64,000 nt of DNA from an uncultured Dehalococcoidia bacterium (GTDB lineage Bacteria > Chloroflexota > Dehalococcoidia > Lucifugimonadales > UBA3495). The stretch spans positions 2,589,570-2,653,569 of the forward strand of contig OY282565.1 of NCBI GenBank assembly GCA_958296445.1. The letters are read 5' to 3'. Below are positions 1-64,000 of the stretch, piece after piece; within the stretch, counting starts at the first letter, position 1, and each line of letters begins with the position of its first letter. The notes under the pieces are model-generated. The model was not told the DNA's origin, did no database searches, and worked only from the letters and a program-made list of their open reading frames with translations. The translations under genes were made by a program, and so were the position numbers.

Positions 1-559
1 CGTAGGCCGGGATGTCGGTGGCGTCTACCGCCAGAATCGCGCCCAGTGCGGGGGCTCCGGCGGGGATTACACCGGATTTCCGCAACTCTTCTATTTCAAC
101 AGCGCACTCCTCGAACACTGCCGCCATGATCGGATTCAGATCCTCCTGATGCGGAGCAAGCCGGTGGTTCTTGAACCGGCTGAAGGCAACCTCCGAGGGT
201 ACGCGGCTCAGGCCGCACAGCTTCAGCAGGCGCGGGTCATTGCTAACCCGTTCGAGGAACTGGTTAGCGTAGCGCTCGTTGAGGAAGTACTTCAAGATGT
301 GAAGCCGCAACATCTGCCGCGCCGGATACCTGGGATTGCCGCCTGTTTTGTGAGAACTGTCCAGCTTCGCAGCCAGCTCTCTGGAGCAGGCTGAGAAACA
401 GTCCAGAACGTCTTTCAGGAAGCGATAGCCGCTGTTAGAGACTTGCGCGGCAAGCCCGGGTAAATTACTATTCCGGCGCGCCACTGGGAAGCGTCCCTTC
501 CGGGTGAGTGCAGGAGCCGCCGGAGATCGTACCTCTGGCGGCTCCCCTTTAGACAGCAC
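1..559 (-). CDS. IS transposase, N-terminal part (DUF772 / IS5-IS1182-like), truncated by the window edge
   Basis: Absent from the ORF track because it runs off the left edge. Manual minus-strand translation gives ...SHKTGGNPRYPARQMLRLHILKYFLNERYANQFLERVSNDPRLLKLCGLSRVPSEVAFSRFKN...GAILAVDATDIPAY. This is the InsH-N-terminal (DUF772) motif followed by what looks like the first DDE aspartate region. Start is uncertain (GTG at 559 or 484; no in-frame ATG upstream of 313). Confidence 0.65.
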   Translation of the reverse strand, partial: MLSKGEPPEVRSPAAPALTRKGRFPVARRNSNLPGLAAQVSNSGYRFLKDVLDCFSACSRELAAKLDSSHKTGGNPRYPARQMLRLHILKYFLNERYANQFLERVSNDPRLLKLCGLSRVPSEVAFSRFKNHRLAPHQEDLNPIMAAVFEECAVEIEELRKSGVIPAGAPALGAILAVDATDIPAY

Positions 560-745
560 AAATGTACTATCTTTCGCGGCGAATTGCAACTGCCAAGTGT
601 CAGTCGAGGGGCCGTGATTTCTATTTTTCCGGGAGTGATTCTTTTGAGTTAAGGTTTGAGACGTAGGAATTTCAGGTATCCGGGATGATTGGGCTTACCG
701 GGGGCCGGGATTGTCCGGTGCGGTCTTGAGGGGCGGATACCTGAA

Positions 746-845
746 GCGGTGCCTGTGGCCGTTGCTTGTAGCGGTGCCTGGGGCTGTTGCTTGTGGTGGT
801 GCCTGGGGCTGTTGCTTGTGGTGGTGCCTGGGGCTGTTGCTTGTA
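746..845. repeat. 25-bp tandem repeat, 4 copies
   Basis: GGTGCCTG recurs at 748, 773, 798 and 823. The unit is approximately GCGGTGCCTGGGGCTGTTGCTTGTR. The period is not a multiple of 3 and the array lies upstream of the transposase start inside the putative IS. Confidence 0.85.
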
Positions 846-1402
846 GCGGTAAACCAGAGCGGTTCAAGGCCGGGGCGGTGGTTCCTGCCTGGTAGCACCT
901 GCATTTTACCGCTACCGGATGATGATATTCAAATAGCTGACGGCGTAGGTAAAGATGGGGGTTCCGGCGCAGTTTGCGCCGGGCCATGCCATCCCTGCTC
1001 AGAGTTGGCATTTATGCTACGAATTTCGCAAACCTGCTCTGTATGCGAAATCAGGCAGCCCGGCGGCTGGATTCGTCTTCGTCGCGAGTAGCGGAATTTT
1101 CTCTCCCCGGGCAACCCCCTTTGCCACCCTGAACACCCTCTACTATCCTGGGCAACCCTGGGCAACCTCTTTTGCCACCCTGAACACCCTCTACTATCCT
1201 GGGCAACTCCCTTTGTCACCCTGAGCAAAGCGAAGGGTCTCACCGCCCAAGCCGGAATTCTTCGCTTTGCTCAAAACGTCGGCGCTGAACAGCCAGCCGA
1301 GTAATTTCGCAATTTCTCTGGTTCCCCCCGCGCCTTCCCCCCAACACCCATCCAGGCTATAATCCCCGCAAACAAAACCACCCCAGCCCCGCGAGGCCAC
1401 CT

Positions 1403-2146
1403 ATGACCACCAGAACCTTCCCCGTAAGCCAGTCAGTACGCCGCACCCCCCACCCTTTCCCCGACCCACCGCCAAAGGAAGACCTGAACGACTACCTCTT
1501 TCTAACCGAACCGGGCTACGCACGCGCTCTGGTAAGGCATTACGGCAACCGCGACACCACCGCCGTTATGGCCGGTATCTACGTCTCCCAAACCCAGACA
1601 GAGCTGCTCTATCCCGACCTGCTCATAGCTTTCGATATTGACCGCGAAGCCATCATAGCCCGCAAAGGATTCGTCATTGACGAACAAGGCAAGCCCCCCG
1701 ATTTCGTGCTGGAAATAGGTTCGGACGCCACGGGAGACCGGGATGTAATAGACAAGCGTGCCGGATACGCCAACCTAGGCATCCCGGAATACTGGCGGTT
1801 CGACCCCTCCGGCGGCCTGTATCACCGGGGCGCGGCCCTAGCCGGCGACCGCCTAGTAAACGCCCAATACGAACCCATCCCCATCCACCAAACCGACGAC
1901 GGAAACCACCAAGGCTACAGCCCCGCCCTAAACCTAGAACTCCGCTGGGAAAACGGCCAACTCCTATGGTACAACCCAACAGCCCAACGCTACCTGCTCA
2001 ACCTAGACGAAGAAGGCGACGCCCGAATCGCCGCCGAAACCCAGCGCGACATCGCCCAAGCCCAACTCCACACCGCCCAAGCCCGCATCCGCATCCGCCA
2101 ACTCGAAGAACAGCTACGCCGCCACCAAAACCCCAACCCGCCATAA
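1403..2146 (+). CDS. Uma2 family (DUF820) restriction-endonuclease-like protein
   Basis: 247 aa with ...YPDLLIAFDIDRE...KPPDFVLEIGSDATGDRDVIDKRAGYANLGIPEYWRFDPSG..., the PD-(D/E)xK core pattern typical of Uma2/DUF820 proteins. GAGG lies 8 nt before the ATG. Confidence 0.85.
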   Translation: MTTRTFPVSQSVRRTPHPFPDPPPKEDLNDYLFLTEPGYARALVRHYGNRDTTAVMAGIYVSQTQTELLYPDLLIAFDIDREAIIARKGFVIDEQGKPPDFVLEIGSDATGDRDVIDKRAGYANLGIPEYWRFDPSGGLYHRGAALAGDRLVNAQYEPIPIHQTDDGNHQGYSPALNLELRWENGQLLWYNPTAQRYLLNLDEEGDARIAAETQRDIAQAQLHTAQARIRIRQLEEQLRRHQNPNPP

Positions 2147-2237
2147 CCCAAATAGAAACGCCGAGCATCTATCCGCCAATGATATAATCAAAACCAAAGC
2201 CCCGCCCCCCCGAATCCCCACCCCCCCGGAGGCCGCC

Positions 2238-3467
2238 ATGCAACCCCTAGCCGGTATCCGCGTCCTAAGCGTAACCGTCTACCTAGCCGGCCCCTTCGCC
2301 GCCATGAACCTAGCCCGACTAGGCGCCGAAGTCATCAAAATCGAAATCCCCGGCCGCGGCGACCCGGTGCGCGGCAACGGCCCCTTCGCCGGCCCCGAAG
2401 GCACCCACCCCCGCAGCAACTCCAACGACGACCTGTCAACCCGATTCCTCAAACGCACCCAAGGCGTCAAAAGCGTCACCCTAGACCTGAAACACCCCCA
2501 AGGCAAAGACCTTTTCCTCCAACTCGCCCAAAAAAGCGACGTAGTCCTAGAAAACCTAGCCCCCGGCTCCCTCCGCCGCGCCGGGCTAGGCTACGAAGCA
2601 GTCGCCGCCGTCAACCCCGCCATCGTCTACGCCTCCATTTCCGGCTACGGACAGACCGGCCCCTACAAAGACAAACCCGCCCACGACCCCCAGATTCAAG
2701 GCATGAGCGGCCTTATGGACATCAACGGCGACGCCGACGGCCCCCCCGTCAAAGTAGGCTTCTACATCGGCGACCTAGTAACCCCAATGTTCGCCTGCTA
2801 CTCCATCCTCGCCGCCCTCCGCGAAAAAGACCGCACCGGCCAAGGCCAGTACCTAGACGTCTCTATGATGGACACCCTAGTATCCCTGATGTTTATGGAA
2901 AACCTAGAAGAAAGCATCGAAGCCGGCCTCCCCCTGCGCACCGGCAACATCAGCCGCAGCGGCCCCACCGGACTCTACGCCGCCATCGGCGGCGACATCT
3001 CCATCACCGTCACCAGCGACGACCAGTGGCGCCGCATGAGCAACGCCCTCCAATCCCCCGAACTCCTCCAAGACCCCCGCTTCGACACCTACGTAAGCCG
3101 CACCGACAACGTAGAAGCTGCCCGCCAAGAAATCCAAAACCGCATCGGCCTTATGACCATCGAGGCCGCCCTAGAACGCCTAGAAAGCCACGACGTCCCC
3201 TGCGCCCCGGTTCGCACCGCCGAACAGGTAATGAACGACCCCCACTTCTGGGAACGCGGCAGCCTAGCCCCAATGCGCCACTCCGCAATGCCCGAGCCGG
3301 TAGCCGGAGCCATAGCCGCCGGCTTCCCCGTCCGCTTCTCCGGCGGCGAACTCCCCCCGCTACCCGGCGCCCCAACCCTAGGAATGCACAACAACGAAAT
3401 CCTATCCGGCATCCTCGGCCTAACCAGCACCCAACTAGCCGAACTATCAACCCAAGGCGTAATATAA
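2238..3467 (+). CDS. CaiB/BaiF family (class III) CoA-transferase, paralog 1
   Basis: 409 aa. N-terminus LAGIRVLSVTVYLAGPFAAMNLARLGAEVIKIEIPGRGDPVRG and ...ENLAPGSLRRAGLGYEAVAAVNPAIVYASISGYGQTGPY... are hallmark family III motifs. GGAGG RBS 7 nt upstream. Confidence 0.9.
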   Translation: MQPLAGIRVLSVTVYLAGPFAAMNLARLGAEVIKIEIPGRGDPVRGNGPFAGPEGTHPRSNSNDDLSTRFLKRTQGVKSVTLDLKHPQGKDLFLQLAQKSDVVLENLAPGSLRRAGLGYEAVAAVNPAIVYASISGYGQTGPYKDKPAHDPQIQGMSGLMDINGDADGPPVKVGFYIGDLVTPMFACYSILAALREKDRTGQGQYLDVSMMDTLVSLMFMENLEESIEAGLPLRTGNISRSGPTGLYAAIGGDISITVTSDDQWRRMSNALQSPELLQDPRFDTYVSRTDNVEAARQEIQNRIGLMTIEAALERLESHDVPCAPVRTAEQVMNDPHFWERGSLAPMRHSAMPEPVAGAIAAGFPVRFSGGELPPLPGAPTLGMHNNEILSGILGLTSTQLAELSTQGVI

Positions 3468-3651
3468 GCGTCACCCCCGCCACGCACCGCCCACCCAGCC
3501 ACTCCGCCCGCACCTTACCATCCCAACACACCCCGTCATTCCCGCCCGGCACACCCCGCCATCCCGCCCCACCCCGTCATTCCCGCGAAAGCGGGAATCC
3601 AGAAGCACACAGCAAGCATCCAACTTTCCCGAAAGCAAGGGCCTTATGGAT

Positions 3652-3790
3652 GAGAAAATTGCGAAATTACTTCCGCCGCCTGTAACCCTGAGCAAGCCGT
3701 CTGTCATTCTGAGCAAAGCGAAGAATCTCACCTTGGGCGGTGAGACCTTTCCCTTAGCTCAGGGTGCCAAAAGGAAATTTCGCAATTTCC
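3652..3790 (+). repeat. complete copy of MITE-like hairpin repeat, family A
   Basis: Left end GAAAATTGCGAAATT (3654-3668) is the inverted complement of right end GAAATTTCGCAATTTC (3774-3789). The interior is CTGTCATTCTGAGCAAAGCGAAGAATCTCACC-TTGGGC-GGTGAGACCTTTCCCTTAGCTCAG, an imperfect long hairpin. About 30 cores of this family occur in the window. Confidence 0.8.
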
Positions 3791-3876
3791 CCTACGGATT
3801 TCCCCCCTTTCAAGGTAATATCGGAATAAAATTCGGAAACCCCAAAACCCAATCCTTAACCCACGGAGAACCACCC

Positions 3877-4779
3877 GTGAAATTCAAGGCCAAACCCATC
3901 CGCACCGAACTATTCGTCCCCGGCAACAAAGAAGACTGGATGCGCAAAGCCCCCCGCTACCGGGCCGACGCCCTGATTCTAGACCTAGAAGACTCCGTCC
4001 CCCCGGAGCAGAAACCCGCCGCCCGCCAGTCCGTAGCCCAAATGGTGCCGGAACTAGGCGAAGCCAACCAGACCATCGTAGTCCGGGTCAACCGCCTAGA
4101 AACCGGACTCACCGGCAACGACCTAGAAGCCATCGTAGGCCCCCATCTCTACTGCGTCCTGCTCCCCAAAGTAGAGGGCCCCGCCGACGTGGTCGAAGTG
4201 GACACCCTCCTGCGCCACTTCGAGCGCGAAAAAGGGCTGGAAATAGGCCGCATATTCATAGACCCCGCCCTAGAAACCGCCTCCGGCATCCGCCAATCTT
4301 GGGAAATCGCCAACGCCTCCCCCCGCGTCGCCCACATGGGCGCCAGCGGCGGCAAAGGGGGCGACACCGCCCGCTCCATAGGTTTCCAATGGACCCCCCA
4401 GGGCATAGAAACCCTGTTCCTGCGCTCCAAAGTCCTCGTAGACGTCCGCGCCGCCGGCATCCCCTACCCAATGAGCGGCGGCTGGATGGACATTCACGAC
4501 CTAGACGGACTCCAAGCCTCCGCCCGCCAGGCCAAACAGTTAGGCTACACCGGAATGCACCTGATCCACCCCTCCCACGTCCCCGTAGTAAACCGAGTAT
4601 TCACCCCCACCGCCGAAGAAGTAGCCCACTACCAAGGACTCATCGAAGCAATGGAAACCCGCCGTTCCGAAGGCGGCGCAGCCGTAACCTTCGGCGGCGA
4701 TATGGTAGACATAGCCCACGAAGAAACCGCCCGAGAAATGCTCGCAATAGCCCGCGAAATGGGAGTAGAAGGCGCATGA
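3877..4779 (+). CDS. HpcH/HpaI aldolase / citrate lyase beta-subunit-like (CitE family) acyl-CoA lyase
   Basis: Track ORF 3646..4779, but its first 77 codons are translated family A repeat (VILSKAKNLTLGGETFPLAQG). An in-frame GTG at 3877 is preceded by GGAGA. Product VKFKAKPIRTELFVPGNKEDWMRKAPRYRADALILDLEDSVPPEQK... carries the typical CitE/malyl-CoA lyase N-terminal motif. Confidence 0.85.
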   Translation: MKFKAKPIRTELFVPGNKEDWMRKAPRYRADALILDLEDSVPPEQKPAARQSVAQMVPELGEANQTIVVRVNRLETGLTGNDLEAIVGPHLYCVLLPKVEGPADVVEVDTLLRHFEREKGLEIGRIFIDPALETASGIRQSWEIANASPRVAHMGASGGKGGDTARSIGFQWTPQGIETLFLRSKVLVDVRAAGIPYPMSGGWMDIHDLDGLQASARQAKQLGYTGMHLIHPSHVPVVNRVFTPTAEEVAHYQGLIEAMETRRSEGGAAVTFGGDMVDIAHEETAREMLAIAREMGVEGA

Positions 4780-4839
4780 CTAATTCTTAATTGTTTCCAT
4801 ACCAGTTCGGAGAGTCAGTATTTTCAGAGGGAGGATACC

Positions 4840-5319
4840 ATGCCACTTAATGACGTGGTGGATGCCATTCGACACGCCAGGATGATTATAAGGGATCACC
4901 GGGAAAGTGTCCTCACAAGCGAAACATCCACCCGGTACGCCATTATCGACCCTATCCTACGGGCGTTAGGTTGGCAAATTCACAACCCAAGGCAGTGTGA
5001 AGTCTCGTACCAGATCGGACAACAAGGCTTTGTAGATTACGCTCTGTTCAACAGAAATGGGGAGCCGATCGTACTGATAGAGGCCAAAAACCTGGGGATT
5101 AACCCAGTTAATAACGAGGAGCAACTATCCAATTATGCATCAGGGATGCGCAGTGGACTAGCTGTCCTGACCAATGGGCAGGCGTGGCTTTTGTATAACA
5201 TGAGCAAGCGCGGCGCGTTTGGCAACAAATACGCTGACACGGTGGATATTTACGAAGGTGATCGCAGACAAGCCGCGCAGAGGCTGAATCGATGGCTTCG
5301 GAAACTTACATGGTGGTGA
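4840..5319 (+). CDS. HsdR-N-terminal-domain-like (type I restriction enzyme R N-terminus-like) stand-alone protein
   Basis: 159 aa. ...SETSTRYAIIDPILRALGW...GFVDYALFNRNGEPIVLIEAKNLG... resembles the HSDR_N / PD-(D/E)xK-like module. GGGAGGA RBS. Base composition is clearly different from the neighbours (see findings). Confidence 0.6.
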   Translation: MPLNDVVDAIRHARMIIRDHRESVLTSETSTRYAIIDPILRALGWQIHNPRQCEVSYQIGQQGFVDYALFNRNGEPIVLIEAKNLGINPVNNEEQLSNYASGMRSGLAVLTNGQAWLLYNMSKRGAFGNKYADTVDIYEGDRRQAAQRLNRWLRKLTWW

Positions 5320-5329
5320 ATCCCAGCCC

Positions 5330-6208
5330 ATGAAAGAAAGTATGAATGAAGTACCTGGGGCTGACATTTCGCGCTGGCTCCCAATACAAGGCTGCGTAAA
5401 CTTCCGCGACCTAGGCGGCTACCCCAACCGCCAAGGCCAAACCGTCCGCTGGCGCCGCCTATACCGCAGCGACGCCCTACAGGACTTAACCCCCCAAGAC
5501 GCCGCCTACGCCACCCAAGACCTCGACATCGGCCTAATAGTAGACCTACGCAACTCCGACGAAGCCCAGCGCGACGGAATCGGCCCCCTGCCCCAACAAG
5601 GCGCAAAATACCAACACTTCCCCCTACTGCAAGAACGCGGATTCCCCCCCTTCACCGGCAGCGACGTAGTAGAACGCCTGTCATCCACCTACCTATGGCT
5701 GCTACACAACTCCGGCCCCCGCATAGCCAACGCCATAACCGCCATAGCCAACTCCCTAAACCCCAACCACGCCCAAGAACCAACCGCCCCAGACTCCGCC
5801 AACCCCAACCCCAACCCCGACCCGGCCCAAGAACCAACCGCCGCAACCCCCGCCGCCGCCAACCCCAACCCAGCCCAACGACGCGCCGTAGTATTCCATT
5901 GCAGCGCCGGCAAAGACCGCACCGGCCTACTAGCCGCCCTAATCCTAGAAATCCTAGACGTCGACCCCCAAACCATCACCGCCGACTACCTACTAACCAA
6001 CCAAGCAGTAGACGGAATCCTGCGCCGCATCCAGGCAATGCAACCCAACGCCAACCCCACCACCCAATCCCTAGCCGCCCAACCCGCCGCCTTCCAAGCC
6101 TTCCAAAACACCCTGCGCCAGCAATACAACAACGCCGAATCCTACCTACAACACCACGGCGCAACCCCCCAAACCCTCCAAACCCTACGCCGCAACCTAC
6201 TAGAGTAG
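5330..6208 (+). CDS. tyrosine-protein phosphatase family protein (Y_phosphatase3-like)
   Basis: 292 aa with VNFRDLGGY...RLYRSDAL near the N-terminus and the CX5R active-site loop VVFHCSAGKDRTG. It contains an internal P/N/A/T-rich insert (nt about 5755-5885). Confidence 0.8.
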   Translation: MKESMNEVPGADISRWLPIQGCVNFRDLGGYPNRQGQTVRWRRLYRSDALQDLTPQDAAYATQDLDIGLIVDLRNSDEAQRDGIGPLPQQGAKYQHFPLLQERGFPPFTGSDVVERLSSTYLWLLHNSGPRIANAITAIANSLNPNHAQEPTAPDSANPNPNPDPAQEPTAATPAAANPNPAQRRAVVFHCSAGKDRTGLLAALILEILDVDPQTITADYLLTNQAVDGILRRIQAMQPNANPTTQSLAAQPAAFQAFQNTLRQQYNNAESYLQHHGATPQTLQTLRRNLLE

Positions 6209-6301
6209 CCCAACAAAACAAAAACATATAAAATCTCGGCGCCCTCTGCGCGTACTCTGCGCCCTCTGCGTTAAAAAATCTCCAATGCCGGAAACGACAA
6301 T

Positions 6302-10801: not shown

Positions 10802-10824
10802 CCCCCCCACCCACCAACCCTCCC

Positions 10825-13135: not shown

Positions 13136-13138
13136 TCC

Positions 13139-51016: not shown

Positions 51017-51060
51017 AACCCCCTCCCCTGATAATCAAATGCCCCCGAACCCGGCGCCAA

Positions 51061-52817: not shown

Positions 52818-52820
52818 TCG

Positions 52821-56045: not shown

Positions 56046-56440
56046 CCCCTTTCCCAAACGTCTGTCATTCTGAGCAACGTCTGTCATTCTGAGCAACGTC
56101 TGTCATTCTGAGCAAAGTCTGTCACTCTGAGCGCAGTCTGTCATTCTGAGCAAAGCGAAGAATCCCACCTTGGGCGGTAACACCCTTCCCTTCGCCCAAG
56201 GTGGCGCAGTCTGTCATTCTGAGCGACGTCCGGCACTCTGAGCAAAGCGAAGAACCCCACCTAGTGCGGTGTCACCCTTCCCTTTGCTCAGGGTAACGCA
56301 GTCTGTCATCCTAGGCGCAGCCTGTCATCCTGAGCAAAGCCTGTCATCCTGAGCGCCCTCTGTCATTCTGAGCAAAGCGAAGAATCTCGCCTTGGGCACT
56401 GAGACCCTTCCCTAACCCAGAACGGCACGGGTTCCCCAAT
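56046..56440 (+). repeat. three consecutive family A elements with multiple heads
   Basis: CTGAGCAAAGCGAAGAA cores occur at about 56145, 56240 and 56370. Each is preceded by 2-5 copies of GTCTGTCATTCTGAGC-type heads. Confidence 0.8.
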
Positions 56441-56472
56441 GCCCCAACGACCCTGGAGCGCAACCCACGCTT

Positions 56473-57402: not shown

Positions 57403-57411
57403 AGGGGCGCA

Positions 57412-58311
57412 ATGGCAACCCGCGGCAAGGCCGACATCATCGAAAGGGGCAAGCCGGAGTTCCGGGCGCTGTGGCGGCGTCGGCTCTCCCACCTGGCCTA
57501 TACCTTCCGCGGCGCCCCCAAATTCTCCCTGTTTTTCTTGACCCTAACCATAATCTGCGCCATAACCGCCCCCCTCCTGCCCTTCGACCCGGTGCGGGGC
57601 GACTTGTCCAACCCGCTACAGCCCCCGGCCTGGGGGTCGCACCCCCTAGGCACTGACCACCAAGGCCGCGATATGGTGGTGCGCCTGATTCACGGCGCCA
57701 ACATATCCGTAACCGTCGGATTCCTAGCCGTATTCGTCTCCGGCGCCGCCGGAACCCTCATCGCCGTCCTGTCCGGCGTATTCAAGGGCTGGGTAGACGG
57801 CCTCCTGATGCAGCTTACCGACGCCTTTATGGCCCTCCCCTTCCTGATGGTGGCGGTAGCCGTAGTTTCCCTCCTAGGCCCCAGCAAAACCAACGTCATC
57901 CTAGTTCTGGGCCTCCTACGCTGGATGAGCTACGCCCGCATCCTCAGAAGCGAAGTGCTGTCCGTCACCGAAACCGACTACGTCCGCCTGGCCCGCGTGG
58001 CCGGCGCCAGCAACTGGCGCATCATCCTCCGCCACGTCCTGCCCAACCTATCCAACACCCTGCTCATCATAAGCACCCTCGAACTCGGCACCGTCATCAT
58101 CTTCGAGTCGGCCCTCAGCTTCCTCGGCCTCGGCGTCCCCCGCCCCCTACCGTCTTGGGGAACAATGCTTGCCGACTCCCAAAGCTATATCTACAATCAA
58201 TGGTGGCTCCCCGTACTCCCCGGAGTAGCGATTTCCCTCCTAGTAATGTCCACCAACCTAACCGGCGACTGGCTAAGAGAGCGCGTAGACCCCACCCGCC
58301 GCCAGCTCTAG
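57412..58311 (+). CDS. ABC transporter permease (DppC/OppC-like)
   Basis: 299 aa. ...HPLGTDHQGRDMVVRLIHGANIS..., ...TDYVRLARVAGASNWRIILRHVLPN... Confidence 0.9.
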   Translation: MATRGKADIIERGKPEFRALWRRRLSHLAYTFRGAPKFSLFFLTLTIICAITAPLLPFDPVRGDLSNPLQPPAWGSHPLGTDHQGRDMVVRLIHGANISVTVGFLAVFVSGAAGTLIAVLSGVFKGWVDGLLMQLTDAFMALPFLMVAVAVVSLLGPSKTNVILVLGLLRWMSYARILRSEVLSVTETDYVRLARVAGASNWRIILRHVLPNLSNTLLIISTLELGTVIIFESALSFLGLGVPRPLPSWGTMLADSQSYIYNQWWLPVLPGVAISLLVMSTNLTGDWLRERVDPTRRQL

Positions 58312-58399
58312 AGCGTTCCCCAACCAAAACCGAATCCCAACCCTTACGTCCTGCCCGCCGCCAAAAGCCAAAAAAATCCGCCCGCAAAAGGAGAAAACA

Positions 58400-59113
58400 A
58401 TGACCCAAGACGCCGAAACCGCCAACAAATTCAGCGGCGTAATGAAAAGCCTCCCCGAATTCGACCTCTCCCCCCAAGACACCGCCTTCATCATCGTAGA
58501 TATGCAATACCTCGACGCCCACCGCGATTACGGCATCGGAGCCGAAGCCAAAACCCTAGGAACCGCCGAGGACTTCGACTATTTCTTCAGCCGCATCGAA
58601 AACCTGCTGATTCCCCACATCCGGCAGATGCAGGCCGCCTGCCGTGAGAAAGGCGTCGAAGTAATCTTCCTCCGCATCGCCTCCCTAGTCAACGACTGCC
58701 GCGACGTAAGCCCGATTCACAAACGCCTAAAGCTCTTCGCCCCGGCCAACTCCAAAGAAGCCGAAATCCTAGAGGAAATCCGGCCCCTCGACAACGAAAT
58801 CGTCATCACCAAAGGCTGCTCCGGCGCTTTCAACGGCACCAACCTAGACCAGATCCTAGCCAATATGGGCCTCAAGAACCTCATATTCTGCGGCGTAGCC
58901 ACCAACTACTGCGTCGAAACCTCCGTAAGAGACGCCGGCGACCGCGACTACAACGTAATCCTGCTCCACGACGCCTCCGCCGGCTTCACCCAAGAACAAG
59001 ACGAAATGGCCTTCAAGGTTCTCAACGAAACCTACGCCAAAGTAAAGTCCACCAACGAAGTCCTAACCCAAATACGCAACCTAAACCCAACAAAAAACCC
59101 AGCCGCCGTCTAA
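58400..59113 (+). CDS. isochorismatase-family cysteine hydrolase
   Basis: 237 aa. ...DTAFIIVDMQYLD..., ...VITKGCSGAFNGTNLDQIL...LIFCGVATNYCVETSVRDA... AAGGAG RBS. Confidence 0.85.
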   Translation: MTQDAETANKFSGVMKSLPEFDLSPQDTAFIIVDMQYLDAHRDYGIGAEAKTLGTAEDFDYFFSRIENLLIPHIRQMQAACREKGVEVIFLRIASLVNDCRDVSPIHKRLKLFAPANSKEAEILEEIRPLDNEIVITKGCSGAFNGTNLDQILANMGLKNLIFCGVATNYCVETSVRDAGDRDYNVILLHDASAGFTQEQDEMAFKVLNETYAKVKSTNEVLTQIRNLNPTKNPAAV

Positions 59114-59149
59114 CCCCCGCCCGCCCCGCCCCCGCCGCATAGCGCCGGA

Positions 59150-59845
59150 CAAAAGGCAATGTCGCAATCCCCCCAGAACTCGCCGGATTAAAGGGGCCCG
59201 TCACTCTAAGCAAAAGTCTGTCATTCTGAGCAAAGCGAAGAATCTCACCTTGGGCAGTGAGACTCCCCCGCAACGCGCCAGGCAAATGTAGGGGCGCACA
59301 GCCGTGCGCCCTATCCCCGGCGATCCCCTCCGCAGAACTCGCTGGATTATCAAAATCCCCCCATCCTGAAAATCCTCTAATCCCGAAAATCCTGATTCAG
59401 ACAACCCCCCCAAAAACCAACCACCCATCCCCCCCTTCCCCAAGAACGACGAAACCGGCCGCCCCCCCCACCCGCCCGCACCGCGCCGGGCAAAAGGGAA
59501 TGTCGCAATTCCCTCAAAACTCGCTGGATTAAAGGGCTCTATCACTCTGAGCAAAGCTCTGCCACCCTGAGCAAAGCTCTGTCACTCTAACCAAAAGTCT
59601 GTCATTCTGAGCAAAGCGAAGAATCTCACCTTGGGCACTGAGACCCCCCGCATCGCGCAGGGCAACAGTAGGGGCGCACAGCCGTGCGCCCCGTCCCCGG
59701 CGATCCCCTCCGCAGAACTCGCTGGATTATCAAAATCCCCCCATCCTGAAAATCCTCTAATCCCGAAAATCCTGATTCAGACAACCCCCCCAAAAACCAA
59801 CCACCCATCCCCCCCTTCCCCAAGAACGACGAAACCAACCGCCCC
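59150..59845 (+). repeat. about 381-bp composite repeat block, two tandem copies (families A + B + C)
   Basis: CTGTCATTCTGAGCAAAGCGAAGAATCTCACC occurs at 59218 and 59599. Both copies continue through GTAGGGGCGCACAGCCGTGCGCCC and AATCCTCTAATCCCGAAAATCCTGATTCAGACAA with near identity. Confidence 0.85.
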
Positions 59846-59854
59846 ACCCGCCAC

Positions 59855-60268
59855 CTACCCCCGCCGCCCACAACCCCAAAGCCAAAGCCCCACCGACAGC
59901 GTCACCACCACAAACAAAGTATCCACCAACCCCCAATCCAGCGACGGCGGCGCATTACCCCGCAAGCCCACGAACCAGTTATTCAGATACGCCATACCCA
60001 GCCCCAAAGAACCGTAAAAGCGCATATTCACCGACAGCCAAGCCTGCCACCCCACGCTTTCCCGCCCCTCGCCCCGCTGCCGCCACCACCCCCACGCGCT
60101 CGCGCCCAAAGCGATGACCACCGACGCGCCCATCGGCCAGTTAAACACGCTCCAAATCGGAAACCCCGAACTCCCGTCGTGATACAGCGGCGTAATCACA
60201 TAATGAACCCACACCGCCAAAGCCATCACCACCAGATACCCCGAAAAAACCCGCAAAACCACGCCCAT
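59855..60268 (-). CDS. hypothetical membrane protein (4 TM), paralog 1
   Basis: Track ORF ends at 60295. ATG 60268 lies 8 nt after GGAGGG. MGVVLRVFSGYLVVMALAVWVHYVITPLYHDGSSGFPIW... Confidence 0.6.
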   Translation of the reverse strand: MGVVLRVFSGYLVVMALAVWVHYVITPLYHDGSSGFPIWSVFNWPMGASVVIALGASAWGWWRQRGEGRESVGWQAWLSVNMRFYGSLGLGMAYLNNWFVGLRGNAPPSLDWGLVDTLFVVVTLSVGLWLWGCGRRG

Positions 60269-60320
60269 AAAGCCAACCCTCCATCCAAAAATCATCCCAA
60301 AACTACCCGCGCCGCGCCCA

Positions 60321-60773
60321 TCACCCCAGCCCGCGCCGCCGCGAAATCCGCCACAAATCCGCCCCGCACGAAAGCATCACCCCCACAAACACGATATTCA
60401 CCAACCCCCACTCCAAAGCCGGCTCCGGCCCCATCAAATCCGCAAACCAGTTATTAAAAAACCCCAGCGCCAACGCCACCGACGCATAAAAACGCACATT
60501 CACCCACCCCCGCCAACCCACCCCCGCGCCTTCCGCCCCGCCGCCACGACTACCGCCGCCACTGCCACCGTCACCGCCCCCCTGCCGCGCCCACCCCCAC
60601 CCGCTCGCCGCCAGCGCAACAACAACCGCAACCGCCATCGGCCAATTCAACGCCGTCCAAACCGGAAACCCCGTGCTGCCATCGTCATACAGCGGCGTAA
60701 TCGCATAATGAACCCCCACCGCCAAACCCATCACCACTAGATACGCCGAAAAAACCCGCAACCCCGCCCCCAT
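60321..60773 (-). CDS. hypothetical membrane protein (4 TM), paralog 2
   Basis: Track ORF ends at 60896. ATG 60773 was chosen by alignment with paralog 1 (MGAGLRVFSAYLVVMGLAVGVHYAITPLYDDGSTGFPVW...). It carries a G-rich insert GGGDGGSGGGSRGGGAEGAG that paralog 1 lacks. Confidence 0.55.
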   Translation of the reverse strand: MGAGLRVFSAYLVVMGLAVGVHYAITPLYDDGSTGFPVWTALNWPMAVAVVVALAASGWGWARQGGGDGGSGGGSRGGGAEGAGVGWRGWVNVRFYASVALALGFFNNWFADLMGPEPALEWGLVNIVFVGVMLSCGADLWRISRRRGLG

Positions 60774-60875
60774 AAAATCACCCCCCATCCAATTGCGCGA
60801 TCCCCAGTCTACCAATACACTCCCCCAAAATCCCACAACCCCCGCAACCATCCCAACCCAAAACCGGAGCAAACT

Positions 60876-63402
60876 ATGACCGGCGAAAACCCCCAACCCC
60901 CCGCCCCCTTCCGGCTAGTCGAAGCCACCATCGCCCAGCTCCACGCCGCCATCCAATCCGGCCAAACCACCTGCGCCGCCGTAGTCCAGGAATACCTAAC
61001 CCGCGCCCGCGCCTACAACGGCGTAGCCAGCATCCTAGTCACCCAAGACGGCCGCCCCGTCCCCCCCGCCCCCGGCGCCATCCGCGCCCAGGCCCCCATC
61101 CAATTCCCCACAGAAACCGTCAAAGCCTCCGAAATCCTCCCCGACCTCGACCAATACCAAGGCCCGCCCCTAGAATTCGGACGAATGGAACCCACCGCCT
61201 CCGACCCCCAAGTCCACCAACAGTTCGGAATGATAACCGGCATCCCCCCCGGCCGCCTCCCCGGCCCGCCCCAGCTAAACGCCCTAGCCACCTTCAACAT
61301 CCGCGGCGAGCGTTCCGTAACCTGCCGCGGCGACTTCGACCGCCACCCCGCCCTAGGCCCCCTGCCCCCCGCCGCCCCGCCCGTCTGCGAGCACTTCCGC
61401 CACTACCCCGACGCCCTAGAACGCGCCGCCCAACTAGACGCCGCCTACGGCCCCAACCCCGACCTCCAAACAATGCCAATGTACGGCGTAGTCTTCAGCT
61501 TCAAAGACCCCTTCGACACCAAAGATATGCGCTCCACCGGCGGAGCCGACGCCGCCTACGACATCGACTTCCCCGCCCGCGACCACATCCTAGTCCAACA
61601 TTTGCGCGACAAAGGCGCCATCATATTCGCCAAAGCCGTCAACACCGAATACAACGGACGCGCCGGCGACCCCGGCGGCCGCCACGCCCCCGGCAAAATC
61701 CTCCCCTCAGTCCTCGGCTACCAGCGCAGTACCTGGAGCGGCAACCCCGCCAACGTATACGACCCCACCCGCGCCGCCTCCCTAGGCTCCAGCTCCGGCT
61801 CCGCCGTATCCGTAAGCGCCAACCTAGTAATGGCAAGCCTAGGCGAGGAAACCCGCGCCTCCACCCGCGGCCCCTCCAACCACAACGCCATAGCCCTCAT
61901 CCTCCCCCACAAAGCAATGATTCCCTTCAGCGGCGGCGCCATCGGAGCCGACATCTACTGCGACCGAACCGGCATCCTCGCCCGCCGCCTAACCGACTGC
62001 GCCCAAATCCTAGACGCCCTCAAAGACCCCGAAACCGGCTACTACGACCCCCGCGACCCCTTCACCACCGTACCCCGCGCCTCCATCCACGCCGCCCCCT
62101 ACGCCCCCCACGCCCAAGCGTCCGGCCAGCCCAACTCCCTGCGCGGCGTCCGCATCGGCGTAATCCGCGAATCAATGGCCTACCACCCCAACTCCAAAGC
62201 CGAGGAACCCATAGTAACCGCCGCCGCCCGCGAAATAAACCAAATCCTAGCCGGAAAACTAGGCGCAACCCTAGTCGAATCCTCCGACCCCCTATGGCCC
62301 CCCGACCCCAACGCCGAACCCATGCAAACCGACTTCCGCCGCGCCCTAGCCATCCTAACCCCGGTCTTTATGCCCGACCTCCTCTTCCGCCTAGACGACC
62401 ACGGCCAACCCCTGTTCCCCGAATTTGCCGACGCCATAACCCCCACCGAATTTGCCCCCGGCAAAACCTTCGGCTCCGGCAAAATCGCCCCCATTGACTA
62501 TATGGTAGAACTGGCCGAAGGGCGCATCCAACCCGCCGCCAACCTAGACCTGCCCACCGTCCAGCAACAGGAACTCGCAATGTCCTTCCGCTACCACATC
62601 CGCCAGTACCTGACCCGCCGCGCCGCCGACTGGCAAAACCTAGGCTTCACCGAATCCCTAACCGACTGGCCCGCCCTCAACGCCCGCTCCAAATTCTGGG
62701 GCGACGACCAACGCGCCGCCTTCCGCAACTGGCAGGAAATAACCGACCCCCGCAACCCCCTAACCGGACGCCAAGGCGTCCCGGAACGCATAATGCTACG
62801 CGAACTCCTCCGCCGCGTAGAAACGCATAATGCTCCGCGAACTCCGCCGCCGCGTAGATATGATGGTACTCTACGAAAACCGCCTAGACGCCCTAGTCCG
62901 CCTCCACACCCCCTACCCCCCCGCCAAAATCGGCCACGCCCACCACCCCGGCACATCCCAAAACATCCGCCTAGAATCCTTCAACGGCCCCAACGCCGGC
63001 CTAACCGAAATCCTAATCCCCGCCGGCTACATCCAAACCGCCTACGACCCCACCTTCCGCCTCCCCCCACCGCCCCCCACACCCCACCCCAACCCAACAC
63101 CCCCCGCCACCTCCCAACCCCATCCGACACCGCCCGCTACATCCCAACCCCATCCGACACCCCCACCCCCCTGCCCCAACCCGGTGCCGCCCACTACATC
63201 ACCCCATCCCACGCCACCCCCCACACCCCCGCCCCATCCCAACTCCATCCGACACCCCCACCCCTCTGCCCCAACCCGGCCTGCCCTTCTCCCTAGTCTT
63301 CCGCGCCGACCCCGGCCGCGAACCCGCCCTCCTCCAAATAGCTGCCGCCTACGAAGCCGCCACCCACCGCCGCATCCCCCCACCAAACTACACCCCCCTC
63401 TA
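60876..63402 (+). pseudogene. amidase-signature family amidase, frame disrupted by short tandem duplications
   Basis: The N-terminal 640 codons are a good amidase (...FSFKDPFDTKDM..., ...ASLGSSSGSAVSVSANL...). A 37-bp tandem duplication (62785-62821 / 62822-62858) shifts the frame. The sequence continues in frame +1 (MLRELRRRVDMMVLYENRLDALVRLHTPYPPAKIG...AYDPTFRL). The conserved C-terminus ...GLPFSLVFRADPGREPALLQIAAAYEAATHRRIPPPNYTPL-stop (ending at 63402) is in the third frame, after a 95-bp duplication. Confidence 0.6.
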
Positions 63403-63412
63403 ACCCACCCCC

Positions 63413-63690
63413 CGTCCCCCGTAGGGGCGCACAGCCGTGCGCCCCCACCCCCGCAAACACGTCCGAACACCAACAAAAAACCACAAACCACCCCCGCCGC
63501 CCCCCGTACCGTAGGGGCGCACAGCCGTGCGCCCCCACCCCCGCAAACACATCCGACCACCAACAAAAAACCACAAAACCACCCCCGCCGCACCCCGTAC
63601 CGTAGGGGCGCACAGCCGTGCGCCCTCACCCCCGCAAACACGTCCGACCACCAACAAAAAACCACAACCCCACCCCCACCGCCCATCACC
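63413..63690 (+). repeat. 90/91-bp tandem repeat, 3 copies, built on the family B hairpin with a second type of flank
   Basis: GTAGGGGCGCACAGCCGTGCGCCC occurs at 63421, 63511 and 63602, each followed by ACCCCCGCAAACACGTCCGACCACCAACAAAAAACCACAA... A further dispersed copy is at 63889. Confidence 0.85.
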
Positions 63691-64000
63691 CCAAGCAAGC
63701 TGCCTGTCACCCTAAGCAAGCCGTCTATCATTCCGAGCAAAGCAAAGACGCCGTGGGCAGCAAGACCCTCCCCCTAGCTCAGGCCGCCAAAAAGGAATCC
63801 CGCAATTCTCCCCAAGAATACCTGAACCGGCCAACAAAGGAACGCGGCCAACCCCAACACGCGCCGACCCCACCCCACACCGCCCCCCGTAGGGGCGCAC
63901 AGCCGTGCGCCCCCGCAAACACGTCCGACCACCAACAAAAAACCCCAACCCCACCCCCGCCGCCGATCATTCCAAGCAAACCGCCCGTCACAAGCAAAGG

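What the first reader, a model, noticed from the sequence alone, without database searches (positions are those of the whole stretch)
1..64000. Base composition and codon usage are mirrored between the two strands, independent of gene direction
The + strand is C>G and A>T almost everywhere, whichever strand is coding. Hand counts of single 60-nt lines support this. Nt 2281-2340 (inside a + strand CaiB gene): C24 G13 A15 T8. Nt 36001-36060 (inside a minus-strand permease gene): C29 G10 A12 T9. As a result, + strand genes use C/A-ending codons; Leu is repeatedly CTA at the start of 2238..3467 (CCC CTA GCC, GTC CTA AGC, TAC CTA GCC). Minus-strand genes of the same families use G/T-ending codons; 36758..37675 begins ATG CAG CGG TTT TTG GTT CGC ... 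ATG TTG CTG GAT. The paralogous DppB-like permeases 56473..57402 (+) and 46975..47907 / 36758..37675 (-) act as a natural control. The same bias explains why the ORF track is full of long P/R/H/T-rich phantom ORFs on + and G/R/W/V-rich ones on -. By the usual rule (leading strand G+T rich) the minus strand would be the leading strand. That would place the roughly 33-kb run of + strand genes head-on to replication, which is unusual. The skew strength varies between operons (28261-32019 is much weaker), suggesting inversions or different residence times.
Basis: partly seen in the sequence, partly recalled or inferred. Interest (0 to 1): 0.7.

Follow-up and report, generated by a model that had tools for sequence, protein, structure and literature searches.

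The report
Extreme DNA-strand composition bias, SAR202 bacterium
One young lineage of sponge-type SAR202 (Chloroflexota) bacteria has a strand composition bias as strong as in animal mitochondria, so genes on opposite strands use mirror-image codons, while more than 80 close relatives show almost none; comparing the two groups could reveal what sets strand-specific mutation rates.

Summary
The + strand has GC skew -0.32 and AT skew +0.23 over 64 kb. At 4-fold degenerate sites, + strand genes read C .69, A .17, G .10, T .04. Minus-strand genes are the exact mirror. In 48 of 49 genes the third-position skew follows the DNA strand, not the direction of transcription.

It is not an artefact. Two other assemblies of the same lineage, 97-99% identical, show the same bias. 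85 loci from relatives sharing 72-84% protein identity have |GC skew| below 0.1.

Substitutions polarised across the three genomes show the asymmetry is ongoing. Five of six substitution classes are 2.3-3.2 times more frequent when the changed base lies on the - strand.

Low-skew patches are recent imports. One ABC-transporter operon has sharp borders and different alleles in sister genomes. They are not inversions, apart from a ~0.7 kb flipped patch beside an insertion sequence.

A hairpin repeat occurs 26 times, always in + orientation, marking the same polarity.

Best reading: replication-linked, strand-asymmetric damage of unusual intensity. The window lies in one polarity domain. I could not test which strand is leading or whether the sign flips elsewhere, because the 4.0 Mb source contig could not be read.

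The parts
1320..64000 (.). One continuous polarity domain. The + strand is C- and A-rich and the - strand G- and T-rich, in genes of both directions and in spacers.
   Evidence: Cumulative GC skew falls monotonically from about 1.1 kb to 64 kb. 4-fold composition is. Long-resident genes sit on a plateau of GC3 skew -0.78 to -0.80 along the whole window: 2238, 5330, 11903, 23969, 32767, 44391, 50252, 60876.
1..560 (-). 5' part of an IS transposase gene (DUF772 / DDE_Tnp_1 type) that runs off the left end of the window. It has no skew.
   Evidence: Translation. The homologs carry PF05598 or PF01609. GC skew is about 0 over 1-450.
600..1320 (.). Small patch next to the IS, parts of which have reversed polarity. 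It holds a G/T-rich tandem repeat at 745-850 and the only reverse-oriented copy of the hairpin repeat, at 1208-1315. A C-rich tandem repeat at 1105-1207 lies between them and is not reversed.
   Evidence: GC skew reaches +0.35 and AT skew -0.42 at 601-900. Tandem repeat. I read this as a small IS-associated inversion. The edge of a larger reversed region cannot be excluded.
4840..5319 (+). Orphan HSDR_N-like gene with zero skew and GC 0.50. Probably a recent insertion.
   Evidence: GC3 skew +0.02 and AT3 skew 0.00. Pfam PF04313. Local profile.
28400..32200 (+). ABC-transporter operon (solute-binding protein plus two permeases) with weak skew. It is a recombination tract imported from unskewed SAR202 relatives.
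   Evidence: Identity between window and L001 drops from 97-99% to 59-73% exactly here, and the skew collapses in both genomes. The L001 permeases are 93-97% identical in protein to unskewed L005 and L009. The window allele is about 80% identical in DNA to L014, L011 and L016. L208 shares the window allele.
27709..28218 (-). Lone minus-strand gene (glyoxalase family) inside the 33 kb run of + genes. Its codon usage is fully mirrored.
   Evidence: On its coding strand GC3 skew is +0.78 and AT3 skew -0.72. Pfam. Lineage-specific replacements K->R, I->V and A->G mirror those of + genes.
23969..25507 (+). GMC oxidoreductase gene. I used it as the anchor to find sister genomes and 80+ relatives.
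   Evidence: P0254 is 100% identical and lies on a 4,000,658-bp contig.
45880..50042 (-). Permease, permease and binding-protein genes. They are old paralogs of 54000-58311 on the opposite strand, and so form a natural control.
   Evidence: 38-56% protein identity to the + copies. Third bases at identical residues: G 70-99 and C 4-25 per pair.
54000..58311 (+). Binding-protein, permease and permease genes: the + strand paralogs of 45880-50042.
   Evidence: Third bases at identical residues: C 65-108 and G 12-19 per pair.
35685..42460 (-). Minus-strand ABC-transporter genes with mirrored codon usage and intermediate skew.
   Evidence: On the coding strand, GC3 skew is +0.40 to +0.58 and AT3 skew -0.41 to -0.65.
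3665..3780 (+). Example copy of a 70-100 bp intergenic hairpin repeat that always lies in + orientation. Its core is GTCATTCTGAGCAAAGCGAAGAATC.
   Evidence: There are 26 copies with at most 2 mismatches, all on +, where chance expects 0. They start at 3703, 8418, 8617, 11589, 13463, 17637, 17890, 18011, 18112, 18193, 18274, 25960, 32069, 33468, 35577, 38411, 38577, 44275, 45755, 46914, 52195, 52366, 56140, 56362, 59220 and 59601. Copies next to minus-strand genes are also +. L001 has 17 copies, all +. The repeat is absent from 82 other loci, except for 2 related copies in L035.
42722..43178 (+). tRNA-Asp (42722-42797) and tmRNA (42826-43178). Both lie on the C/A-rich strand.
   Evidence: ARAGORN. 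Rfam RF00005 and RF00023.

Best explanation
The window comes from the roughly 4 Mb chromosome of a SAR202 / Dehalococcoidia (Chloroflexota) bacterium of the sponge-associated type.

In this one lineage the two DNA strands mutate at very different rates. Bases on the - strand are changed 2-3 times more often than the same bases on the + strand. This applies to C->T, A->G, C->G, G->T and T->G. Unconstrained sites have therefore drifted to an equilibrium in which the - strand is G+T-rich and the + strand C+A-rich.

Because the pressure acts on the DNA strand, a gene's codon dialect depends only on which strand encodes it. The same pressure also pushes amino-acid replacements: V->I, E->Q, D->N and R->Q in + genes, and the reverse in - genes.

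The most likely source is replication (inferred, not shown). The - strand would be the one that spends more time single-stranded and exposed to damage. By the usual rule that is the lagging-strand template, which has the 'leading-strand' sequence. The whole window would lie within one replication arm.

DNA imported by recombination from unskewed relatives arrives without skew and acquires it with time. This explains the weaker operons.

What made the asymmetry about ten times stronger than in relatives is unknown. Possible causes are a change in the replisome, in repair of damaged single-stranded DNA, or in replication mode.
For: - Strand-bound, not transcription-bound: 48 of 49 genes; mirror 4-fold composition; paralogs.
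- Strongest at neutral sites: GC skew at codon positions 1, 2 and 3 is +0.04, -0.22 and -0.62 in + genes. Non-coding DNA is -0.375.
- Real and heritable: three independent assemblies share it. These are the window, L001 (2.3 Mb contig) and L208.
- Lineage-specific: 85 loci from relatives have |GC skew| below 0.1. Their 4-fold AT component stays within about ±0.15.
- Ongoing: 159 polarised substitutions at 4-fold and non-coding sites. The -/+ rate ratios are 2.3-3.2 in five of six classes. The implied stationary 4-fold composition is A .18, C .63, G .16, T .04.
- Directional protein evolution against 79 and 22 unskewed orthologs, and a longer branch.
- Imports reset the skew.
- An independent polar marker, the hairpin repeat, has one orientation across the window.
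- The sign pattern (G+T against A+C) is the classical one for replication-linked asymmetry. This rests on general knowledge and on PMC2031905 and PMC7143001.
Against: - No origin, terminus or sign switch was seen. The link to replication is inferred from the pattern alone.
- By the usual rule, 76% of the genes, tRNA-Asp and tmRNA would be head-on to the fork. That is atypical and may mean the rule is inverted here.
- The polarised counts are small (3-40 per class). They can be distorted by recombination imports, assembly errors and parsimony bias.
- The recent spectrum implies a somewhat weaker equilibrium than the one observed.
- No replication or repair gene lies in the window to suggest a cause.
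Confidence: 0.7

Rival explanations
1. The whole chromosome has a single polarity. The genome is replicated in one direction or by a strand-displacement (mitochondrion-like) mode, so the same strand is C/A-rich around the entire chromosome and there is no sign switch.
For: The magnitude and the joint G+T / A+C pattern at 4-fold sites resemble vertebrate mitochondrial DNA (general knowledge). Most genes lie on the A+C-rich strand, as in mtDNA. A precedent exists in the bacterium Ch65, with 29.8% C against 15.0% G on one strand of the whole chromosome, for which unidirectional replication was proposed (PMC7143001). There is no gradient and no switch over 62 kb.
Against: 64 kb of a 4 Mb genome cannot tell one polarity domain from a 2 Mb replication arm. 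Ch65 has no AT skew and a genome under 1 Mb. Unskewed close relatives with 3.3-5 Mb circular chromosomes are presumably replicated bidirectionally.
Confidence: 0.18
2. The polarity rule is inverted. The C/A-rich + strand is the leading strand, co-oriented with most genes. The asymmetry then comes from different error or repair spectra of leading- and lagging-strand synthesis, not from damage to exposed single-stranded DNA.
For: 37 of 49 genes, tRNA-Asp and tmRNA are on the C/A-rich strand. In moderately skewed relatives, the strand carrying most genes of the syntenic locus is also the C-rich one. Transversions G->T and T->G on the - strand are as asymmetric as deamination-type transitions.
Against: G+T enrichment of the leading strand is nearly universal in bacteria without PolC (PMC2031905). 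The relatives' loci are syntenic and so are not independent samples. 64 kb is too little to judge gene-strand bias.
Confidence: 0.2
3. A specific enzymatic cause dominates, not replication geometry. Examples are loss of uracil or hypoxanthine repair (Ung, endonuclease V), or gain of a deaminase acting on single-stranded DNA.
For: C->T and A->G on the - strand are elevated. Depletion of - strand C depends on context: it is strongest after T and weakest after G. On the + strand, G/(G+A) is 0.13-0.22 before A and 0.60-0.66 before C, a larger contrast than in relatives (0.65-0.67 against 0.79-0.81). The change is abrupt on one branch.
Against: Transversion classes that deamination does not explain are equally asymmetric. 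A repair loss still needs an underlying strand asymmetry to act on, so this is a modifier rather than an alternative. No gene-content data were available.
Confidence: 0.3
4. Selection, not mutation, shapes strand composition. Examples are selection against G-rich structures or for a particular composition of the transcribed strand.
For: The 25-mer core of the hairpin repeat keeps its G and T bases unchanged in 24 copies, so selection can resist the pressure locally.
Against: The bias is strongest where selection is weakest, at 4-fold sites and in spacers. It is identical for both gene directions. It drives amino-acid changes in opposite directions on the two strands.
Confidence: 0.04
5. Transcription-coupled mutation or codon-usage selection.
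For: None specific. Unskewed relatives show a small coding-strand C excess of about 0.09 at 4-fold sites.
Against: The transcription-bound component here is about 0.01, against a strand-bound component of 0.61-0.65. Minus-strand genes have the opposite codon dialect.
Confidence: 0.01
6. Assembly or sequencing artefact.
For: None.
Against: Three assemblies from different ENA analyses agree at 97-99% identity. The bias respects codon position and leaves long intact ORFs with full-length Pfam matches. Normal-composition imported tracts sit inside the same contigs.
Confidence: 0.01

Closest known systems
Strand-specific codon usage from replication-linked mutation bias (Borrelia burgdorferi, Treponema, Chlamydia muridarum, Lawsonia intracellularis, Ehrlichia canis, Buchnera)
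   Same: Genes fall into two codon-usage and amino-acid-usage groups according to the DNA strand, not according to expression. One strand is rich in G+T. The effect is strongest at third codon positions (PMC2089121, PMC2671203, PMC3023944, PMC2031905).
   Different: Magnitude: the largest phylum-average replication-linked GC skew in coding DNA is 0.096, in Spirochaetes (PMC2031905). Here it is about 0.3 overall and 0.75 at 4-fold sites, with an equally strong AT skew. The host differs too: a 61% GC, roughly 4 Mb environmental Chloroflexota genome, not a small AT-rich host-restricted one. Close relatives lack the bias.
Heavy/light-strand asymmetry of vertebrate mitochondrial DNA
   Same: There is a G+T-rich strand and an A+C-rich strand, with 4-fold-site skews of similar size. 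Most genes are encoded on the A+C-rich strand. C->T and A->G are elevated on one strand. This comparison rests on general knowledge and was not tested here.
   Different: A 16 kb organelle genome with strand-displacement replication, against a multi-Mb bacterial chromosome. No gradient with distance from an origin could be examined. Transversions are also asymmetric here.
Candidatus Chazhemtobacterium aquaticus Ch65 and related Microgenomates (PMC7143001)
   Same: One strand has about twice as much C as G (29.8% against 15.0%, a GC skew near -0.33). Genes lie on both strands. The feature is shared by a few related lineages and absent in a more distant one.
   Different: Ch65 shows no AT disparity. 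Its cumulative skew is monotonic over the whole small chromosome, and unidirectional replication was proposed. Here AT skew is as strong as GC skew, and the whole-chromosome profile is unknown.
REP/BIME elements with RAYT transposases, and IS200/IS605-type hairpin elements
   Same: The repeat is a short intergenic imperfect palindrome present in many copies. Elements of the IS200/IS605 type move as single-stranded DNA and prefer the lagging-strand template, which ties their orientation to replication direction (PMC3333891, PMC5027513).
   Different: No Y1 transposase gene lies in the window. No cleavage site or guide sequence was identified. The same 25-mer occurs as single copies in many unrelated metagenome contigs. 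Mobility was not shown.

Membership tests
Replication-linked strand compositional asymmetry (chirochores) | Skew at weakly selected sites follows the DNA strand regardless of gene direction | tested here: met
   The strand-bound component is -0.61 for GC3 and +0.65 for AT3. The transcription-bound component is about 0.01.
Replication-linked strand compositional asymmetry (chirochores) | Effect strongest at third codon positions and in intergenic DNA | tested here: met
   codon positions 1, 2 and 3 give +0.04, -0.22 and -0.62 in + genes. Non-coding DNA gives -0.375.
Replication-linked strand compositional asymmetry (chirochores) | Sign switches at the replication origin and terminus | not testable with these tools
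   The source contig (4,000,658 bp) and distant parts of s619.ptg000741l could not be read. Only a 0.7 kb reversed patch at the left edge was seen.
Replication-linked strand compositional asymmetry (chirochores) | The G+T-rich strand is the leading strand, co-oriented with most genes and with stable-RNA genes | tested here: inconclusive
   37 of 49 genes, tRNA-Asp and tmRNA lie on the C+A-rich strand. Fork direction is unknown and the sample is only 64 kb.
Whole-chromosome single-strand disparity (Ch65 type, unidirectional replication proposed) | Monotonic cumulative skew over the complete chromosome | not testable with these tools
   Only 64 kb could be read, plus 21.5 kb and 15 kb of the same locus in sister genomes.
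Whole-chromosome single-strand disparity (Ch65 type, unidirectional replication proposed) | G/C disparity without A/T disparity | tested here: not met
   AT skew is +0.234 overall and +0.66 at 4-fold sites. Ch65 has A 27.9% and T 27.3%.
Mitochondrial-type asymmetry (long-lived single-stranded parental strand) | One strand is G+T-rich and the other A+C-rich at 4-fold sites, with C->T and A->G elevated on the G+T-rich strand | tested here: met
   for composition. for rates: C->T is 2.3 times and A->G 2.7 times higher on the - strand, from small counts.
Mitochondrial-type asymmetry (long-lived single-stranded parental strand) | Skew increases with the time a site spends single-stranded, giving a gradient from the origin | tested here: inconclusive
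   Resident genes show a flat plateau of GC3 skew -0.78 to -0.80 over 62 kb. The span is too short relative to 4 Mb.
Transcription-coupled strand asymmetry | The sign of the skew follows the transcribed strand | tested here: not met
Horizontally acquired island (for the low-skew patches) | Sharp borders, atypical composition, different alleles in sister genomes, and a closer match to other lineages | tested here: met
   for 28.4-32.2 kb. For 4840-5319 only the composition was tested.
REP / IS200-IS605-type single-strand hairpin elements (for the polar repeat) | Imperfect palindrome, many intergenic copies, orientation tied to one DNA strand | tested here: met
   26 of 26 copies are on +.
REP / IS200-IS605-type single-strand hairpin elements (for the polar repeat) | An associated Y1 (HUH) transposase and defined cleavage sites | not tested
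   No such gene turned up among the 38 window genes and 6 further ORFs scanned with Pfam. The rest of the genome could not be read.

The most novel reading that the evidence does not exclude
A recently arisen SAR202 lineage has changed how its roughly 4 Mb chromosome is replicated or protected. One parental strand stays single-stranded far longer than in ordinary bacteria, through uncoupled or delayed lagging-strand synthesis, strand displacement or unidirectional replication. This produces mitochondrion-grade strand asymmetry, two codon dialects and strand-dependent protein evolution. It also favours the spread of a strictly polar hairpin repeat through single-stranded DNA. Because unskewed sister species are available, the responsible replisome or repair change could be identified by comparison.
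Probability: 0.25. Interest if true: 0.88.

Novelty: new variant of a known kind. Interest (0 to 1): 0.72.

Why it matters
Strand compositional asymmetry has been known for 30 years, but its cause is still debated. Candidates include deamination of single-stranded DNA, polymerase errors, repair and selection.

Here the asymmetry is about ten times the usual size. It arose on a single short branch, and dozens of closely related genomes lack it. That is close to a natural experiment. Comparing replication and repair genes between skewed and unskewed sisters, and mapping origin and terminus, could show directly what sets the strength of the asymmetry.

The case also shows how far mutation pressure can push a large, gene-rich genome. 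Synonymous codons differ almost completely between strands, which puts demands on the tRNA pool. Protein sequences drift in opposite directions on the two strands. Gene finders are flooded with phantom ORFs.

The decay of foreign composition towards the plateau offers a clock for dating imports.

On the practical side, such genomes can confuse binning, gene calling and phylogenetic placement (long branches).

Tried and rejected
1. Finding the source contig. Exact look-ups of three window proteins found nothing. P0254 later proved identical to the window's GMC protein and lies on a 4,000,658-bp contig held by NCBI and ENA. Two other proteins whose listed longest contig has that same length were also 'not on record'. 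Whole-genome skew could therefore not be computed.

2. Sampling distant positions of the 2.3 Mb sister contig.
- A search with the IS transposase fragment gave 13 hits, none on that contig. The one hit I fetched, L207, is unskewed.
- A search with a conserved neighbour gene of relatives that is missing from the window gave no hit on that contig.

3. A scan of metagenome contigs for the 25-mer repeat core returned 120 unrelated single-copy hits of varied GC content. This was useless for finding the lineage. It does show that the motif itself is widespread.

4. Looking for intermediate lineages. Loci of the next-best GMC hits, at 81-82% identity, are unskewed.

5. Gene conversion between opposite-strand paralogs as the cause of weaker skew in ABC genes. 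Rejected, because the paralogs share only 23-57% protein identity.

6. Codon selection as the cause of weaker skew in ABC genes. Rejected, because the reduction is the same for + and - copies. Import is shown directly for one operon.

7. Polarising mutations with the imported operon against its donors. Rejected, because the nearest available relatives are only about 80% identical in DNA.

8. Rfam. Only tRNA and tmRNA were found, and nothing matched the hairpin repeat.

9. Hairpin stability. The - strand version folds 4-7 kcal/mol better. The mutation bias alone would produce this through G·T pairs, so it is not independent evidence.

10. Literature. I found no report of extreme skew in SAR202 or Chloroflexota.

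Full report
**1.

The window has 25,650 C against 13,291 G, and 15,461 A against 9,598 T, on the + strand. That gives GC 0.608, GC skew -0.317 and AT skew +0.234. C>G holds in 97.7% of 500-nt windows and A>T in 89.8%. Cumulative GC skew falls without a turning point from about 1.1 kb to 64 kb.

I picked 49 likely genes by amino-acid composition and by low G+C at codon position 2. Of the 38 I scanned with Pfam, 35 matched a family. 37 genes are on + and 12 on -.

Referenced to the + strand, mean GC3 skew is -0.62 for + genes and -0.60 for - genes. Mean AT3 skew is +0.64 and +0.66. The strand-bound component is therefore about -0.61 / +0.65 and the transcription-bound component about 0.01. 48 of 49 genes share the sign.

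**2. Two mirror-image codon dialects**

At 4-fold degenerate sites, + genes have C .692, A .173, G .099, T .036. Minus genes, read on their own coding strand, have G .703, T .156, C .112, A .029.

| Codon | + genes | - genes |
|---|---|---|
| Leu CTA | 40% | 1% |
| Val GTG | 9% | 67% |
| Lys AAA | 79% | 14% |

The quoted codon strings are present.

The paralog control works. The paralogs share 23-57% protein identity, which is too old for gene conversion. At aligned identical residues in six opposite-strand pairs, the + copy ends in C in about 68% of cases and the - copy in G in about 75%.

Amino-acid usage is shifted as well. His, Gln, Asn and Pro are 1.4-1.7 times commoner in + genes. Val, Gly and Trp are commoner in - genes.

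The phantom ORFs are as described: 32 of at least 150 aa on +, with P 19% and R 19%; 11 on -, with G 19%, R 14% and V 9%.

**3. What organism this is, and why it is not an artefact**

The gene content is typical of SAR202. It includes six family-III CoA-transferase paralogs, luciferase-like monooxygenases, a GMC oxidoreductase, many ABC and TRAP binding proteins, and Uma2.

A scan of one genome per species found 80 loci encoding the GMC protein at 72-84% identity. All are labelled Dehalococcoidia, Chloroflexota or SAR202 MAGs, and many are 3.3-5 Mb chromosomes. One protein hit is filed under the sponge Geodia barretti, so a sponge-associated habitat is likely but is an inference.

Three assemblies carry the bias:
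- the window;
- L001, at position 2.06 Mb of the 2,317,608-bp contig s619.ptg000741l of ERZ19489113, with GC skew -0.324 and AT skew +0.262;
- L208, contig_45 of ERZ19489050, with -0.317 and +0.224.

These three are 97-99% identical to each other in DNA.

The window's GMC protein is identical to P0254, which lies on a 4,000,658-bp contig held by NCBI and ENA. This is very probably the source.

The bias respects codon position. Full-length domains are intact. Tracts of normal composition sit inside the same contigs. An artefact is therefore excluded.

**4. The bias is confined to this lineage**

All 80 species-level relatives have |GC skew| below 0.1 over about 21 kb. So do L002 and L003 and the three next-best hits at 81-82% identity, L204-L206.

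I split the relatives' 4-fold skew into strand-bound and transcription-bound parts:
- The strand-bound GC component ranges from -0.31 to +0.19.
- The strand-bound AT component stays within about ±0.15.
- There is a small coding-strand C excess of about 0.09.

The window's values of -0.73 (GC) and +0.66 (AT) stand far outside these ranges, the AT skew most clearly.

The ten nearest relatives are 88.5% identical to each other in GMC protein, but only 80-84% identical to the window. The window's distance to 40 outgroups is 0.258, against 0.20-0.23 for those relatives. The skewed lineage therefore sits on a longer branch inside an otherwise unskewed clade.

**5. Direction of change, polarised**

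*Protein level.* I compared the window with 79 (GMC) and 22 (luciferase-like) unskewed orthologs. The window-specific replacements in these + strand genes are overwhelmingly V->I (11), V->L, V->A, E->Q, D->N, R->Q, G->A and D->H. On the + strand these are G->A, G->C and T->C changes. The mean shift is -1.3 to -1.5 in (G+T)-(C+A) per replaced residue. The one minus-strand gene with orthologs shows the mirror (K->R, I->V, A->G), but with only 6 replacements.

*DNA level.* I aligned the three sister genomes and assigned singleton differences to terminal branches. This gave 159 substitutions at 2,417 4-fold or non-coding sites.

| Change | Rate on - strand (×10⁻³) | Rate on + strand (×10⁻³) | Ratio |
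|---|---|---|---|
| C->T | 40.0 | 17.7 | 2.3 |
| A->G | 65.7 | 24.2 | 2.7 |
| C->G | 26.7 | 9.2 | 2.9 |
| T->G | 44.4 | 14.1 | 3.2 |
| G->T | 28.4 | 10.0 | 2.8 |

Fisher p is 0.014-0.068 for each class. A->T shows no asymmetry.

The stationary composition implied by the 4-fold rates is A .18, C .63, G .16, T .04, which corresponds to GC skew -0.60 and AT skew +0.64. The process is therefore still running and is not a relic.

Caveats:
- The counts are small.
- Recombination imports and assembly errors inflate changes away from the common bases.
- Parsimony is biased when composition is skewed.

Almost every kind of change is more frequent when the changed base lies on the - strand. This points to general extra damage or poorer repair of that strand, rather than to one lesion type.

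A context effect exists. Minus-strand C is most depleted after T and least after G, and the contrast is larger than in relatives. It is measured on equilibrium composition, and I treat it only as a lead.

**6. Heterogeneity comes from imports**

Long-resident genes sit on a flat plateau of GC3 skew -0.78 to -0.80 along the whole window.

The window and L001 are 97-99% identical except between about 28.4 and 32.2 kb. There identity falls to 59-73% at sharp borders, and skew collapses in both genomes.
- The L001 permeases are 93-97% identical in protein to those of unskewed L005 and L009.
- The window allele is closest, at about 80% DNA identity, to L014, L011 and L016.
- L208 shares the window allele.

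The operon has thus been replaced by recombination with unskewed relatives, most recently in L001.

The other ABC-transporter genes have a symmetrically reduced skew on both strands. That argues against codon selection and for shorter residence. Import was shown directly only for this one operon.

Gene 4840-5319 has zero skew and GC 0.50, and looks like a recent insertion.

An inversion should show the opposite sign. That is seen only at 600-1320, next to an IS fragment (1-560, no skew). This patch holds a G/T-rich tandem repeat and the single reverse-oriented copy of the hairpin repeat. A C-rich tandem repeat at 1105-1207 between them is not reversed. Whether the patch is a small inversion or the edge of a larger reversed region cannot be decided, because the window ends there.

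**7. A second polar marker**

A 70-100 bp intergenic imperfect palindrome has the core GTCATTCTGAGCAAAGCGAAGAATC.
- It occurs 26 times with at most 2 mismatches, always in + orientation, including beside minus-strand genes. Chance expects 0 copies, and all-one-orientation has a probability of about 3e-8.
- L001 has 17 copies, all +.
- The other loci lack it.
- The core keeps its G and T bases despite the mutation pressure, also at orthologous sites in the sister genome. It is therefore either under constraint or spreading recently.

Hairpin elements of the IS200/IS605 and REP/RAYT type move as single-stranded DNA at the lagging-strand template (PMC3333891, PMC5027513). That would tie their orientation to fork direction. 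No transposase was found in the window, and mobility is not shown.

**8. Mechanism**

*Shown:*
- a strand-bound, ongoing mutational asymmetry of very large size;
- its confinement to one lineage;
- its effects on codons and proteins;
- resetting by imports.

*Inferred:*
- it is replication-linked;
- the - strand is the more exposed strand;
- the window lies on one replication arm.

*Unknown:*
- fork direction and whether the sign flips elsewhere;
- what changed in this lineage.

By the usual G+T rule the - strand has the leading-strand sequence. Then 76% of the genes, tRNA-Asp and tmRNA would be head-on to replication. Either this is a local exception, or the rule is inverted here, or the replication mode is unusual. 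In vertebrate mitochondria most genes also lie on the A+C-rich strand (general knowledge).

**9. Comparison with what is known**

Strand-specific codon usage is well described in Borrelia, Chlamydia, Lawsonia, Ehrlichia and others. However, phylum-average replication-linked GC skew in coding DNA reaches only 0.096 (PMC2031905).

A comparable G/C disparity, 29.8% C against 15.0% G, is reported for the small genome of Ca. Chazhemtobacterium Ch65. It has no AT disparity, and unidirectional replication was proposed for it (PMC7143001).

I found no report for SAR202 or Chloroflexota.

I therefore file this as a new variant of a known kind. The phenomenon is familiar. Its magnitude is exceptional, GC and AT skew are jointly strong, the genome is large and GC-rich, and the bias arose recently among unskewed relatives.

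**10. What could not be done**

The decisive whole-contig skew profile was out of reach. The exact computations needed are listed under next steps.

Noticed in passing
window 3703-59625 (26 copies; example 3665-3780); L001 17 copies: An intergenic hairpin repeat with the conserved 25-mer GTCATTCTGAGCAAAGCGAAGAATC lies in + orientation in every copy, whatever the direction of the neighbouring genes. It is absent from unskewed relatives. The same 25-mer occurs singly in many unrelated metagenome contigs.
   Followed up: partly
window 1-1320: The window starts inside an IS transposase gene (DUF772/DDE_Tnp_1, minus strand, no skew). A ~0.7 kb patch follows, parts of which have reversed skew, and it holds the only reverse-oriented hairpin repeat. 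This could be a small inversion or the edge of a reversed region.
   Followed up: partly
window 10824-11501 and 63419-63682: Tandem arrays: a 68-bp unit in 10 copies at 97% identity, and a 91-bp unit in 2.9 copies. Both contain the perfect palindrome GGGGCGCACAGCCGTGCGCCCC. This is a second repeat family, and it is also C/A-rich on +.
   Followed up: no
window 13572-15756: A tandem array of three copies of a 169-177 aa gene with no Pfam match, 63-88% identical to each other. Two near-identical 104 aa genes with a weak match to a PBECR2 nuclease domain lie between the copies. It looks like a toxin/immunity-type cassette array.
   Followed up: no
window 4840-5319: An orphan 159 aa gene with a type I restriction HSDR_N domain. 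It has GC 0.50 and zero skew in a 0.61 GC, strongly skewed background, so it is probably a very recent insertion.
   Followed up: partly
window 17475-18325: A dense array of hairpin-repeat copies and 20-40 bp tandem repeats lies upstream of, and inside the over-long ORF of, the CoA-transferase gene 17710-19635. The Pfam domain begins at residue 243, and the L001 ortholog is 411 aa. The real start is therefore near 18.4 kb.
   Followed up: partly
window 33736-33990, 54290-54420, 62830-63780: C/A-rich tandem repeats are translated into Pro/Thr/His/Gln-rich low-complexity linkers or tails in + strand proteins: the TRAP binding protein, the ABC binding protein and the amidase. The strand bias seems to feed low-complexity protein segments.
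   Followed up: no
window 42722-43178: tRNA-Asp (GTC) is followed directly by tmRNA (tag peptide GEREFALAA). Both are on the C/A-rich strand, between divergent ABC-transporter and hydrolase genes.
   Followed up: no
L002/L004/L005/L009/L204/L206, about 10 kb upstream of the GMC gene: Many relatives keep a conserved block upstream of the GMC gene: MFS transporter, creatinase-like peptidase, luciferase-like monooxygenase, hydrolase, DUF7700 and DinB. The monooxygenase and DinB genes are present in 56-57 of the 80 loci. The skewed lineage has cation-efflux genes there instead.
   Followed up: partly
L044, L025 and about 15 other relatives' loci: Some unskewed-looking relatives have a moderate strand-bound GC skew at 4-fold sites, up to about 0.3, with no AT skew. 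The lineage may have amplified a tendency already present in the clade.
   Followed up: partly
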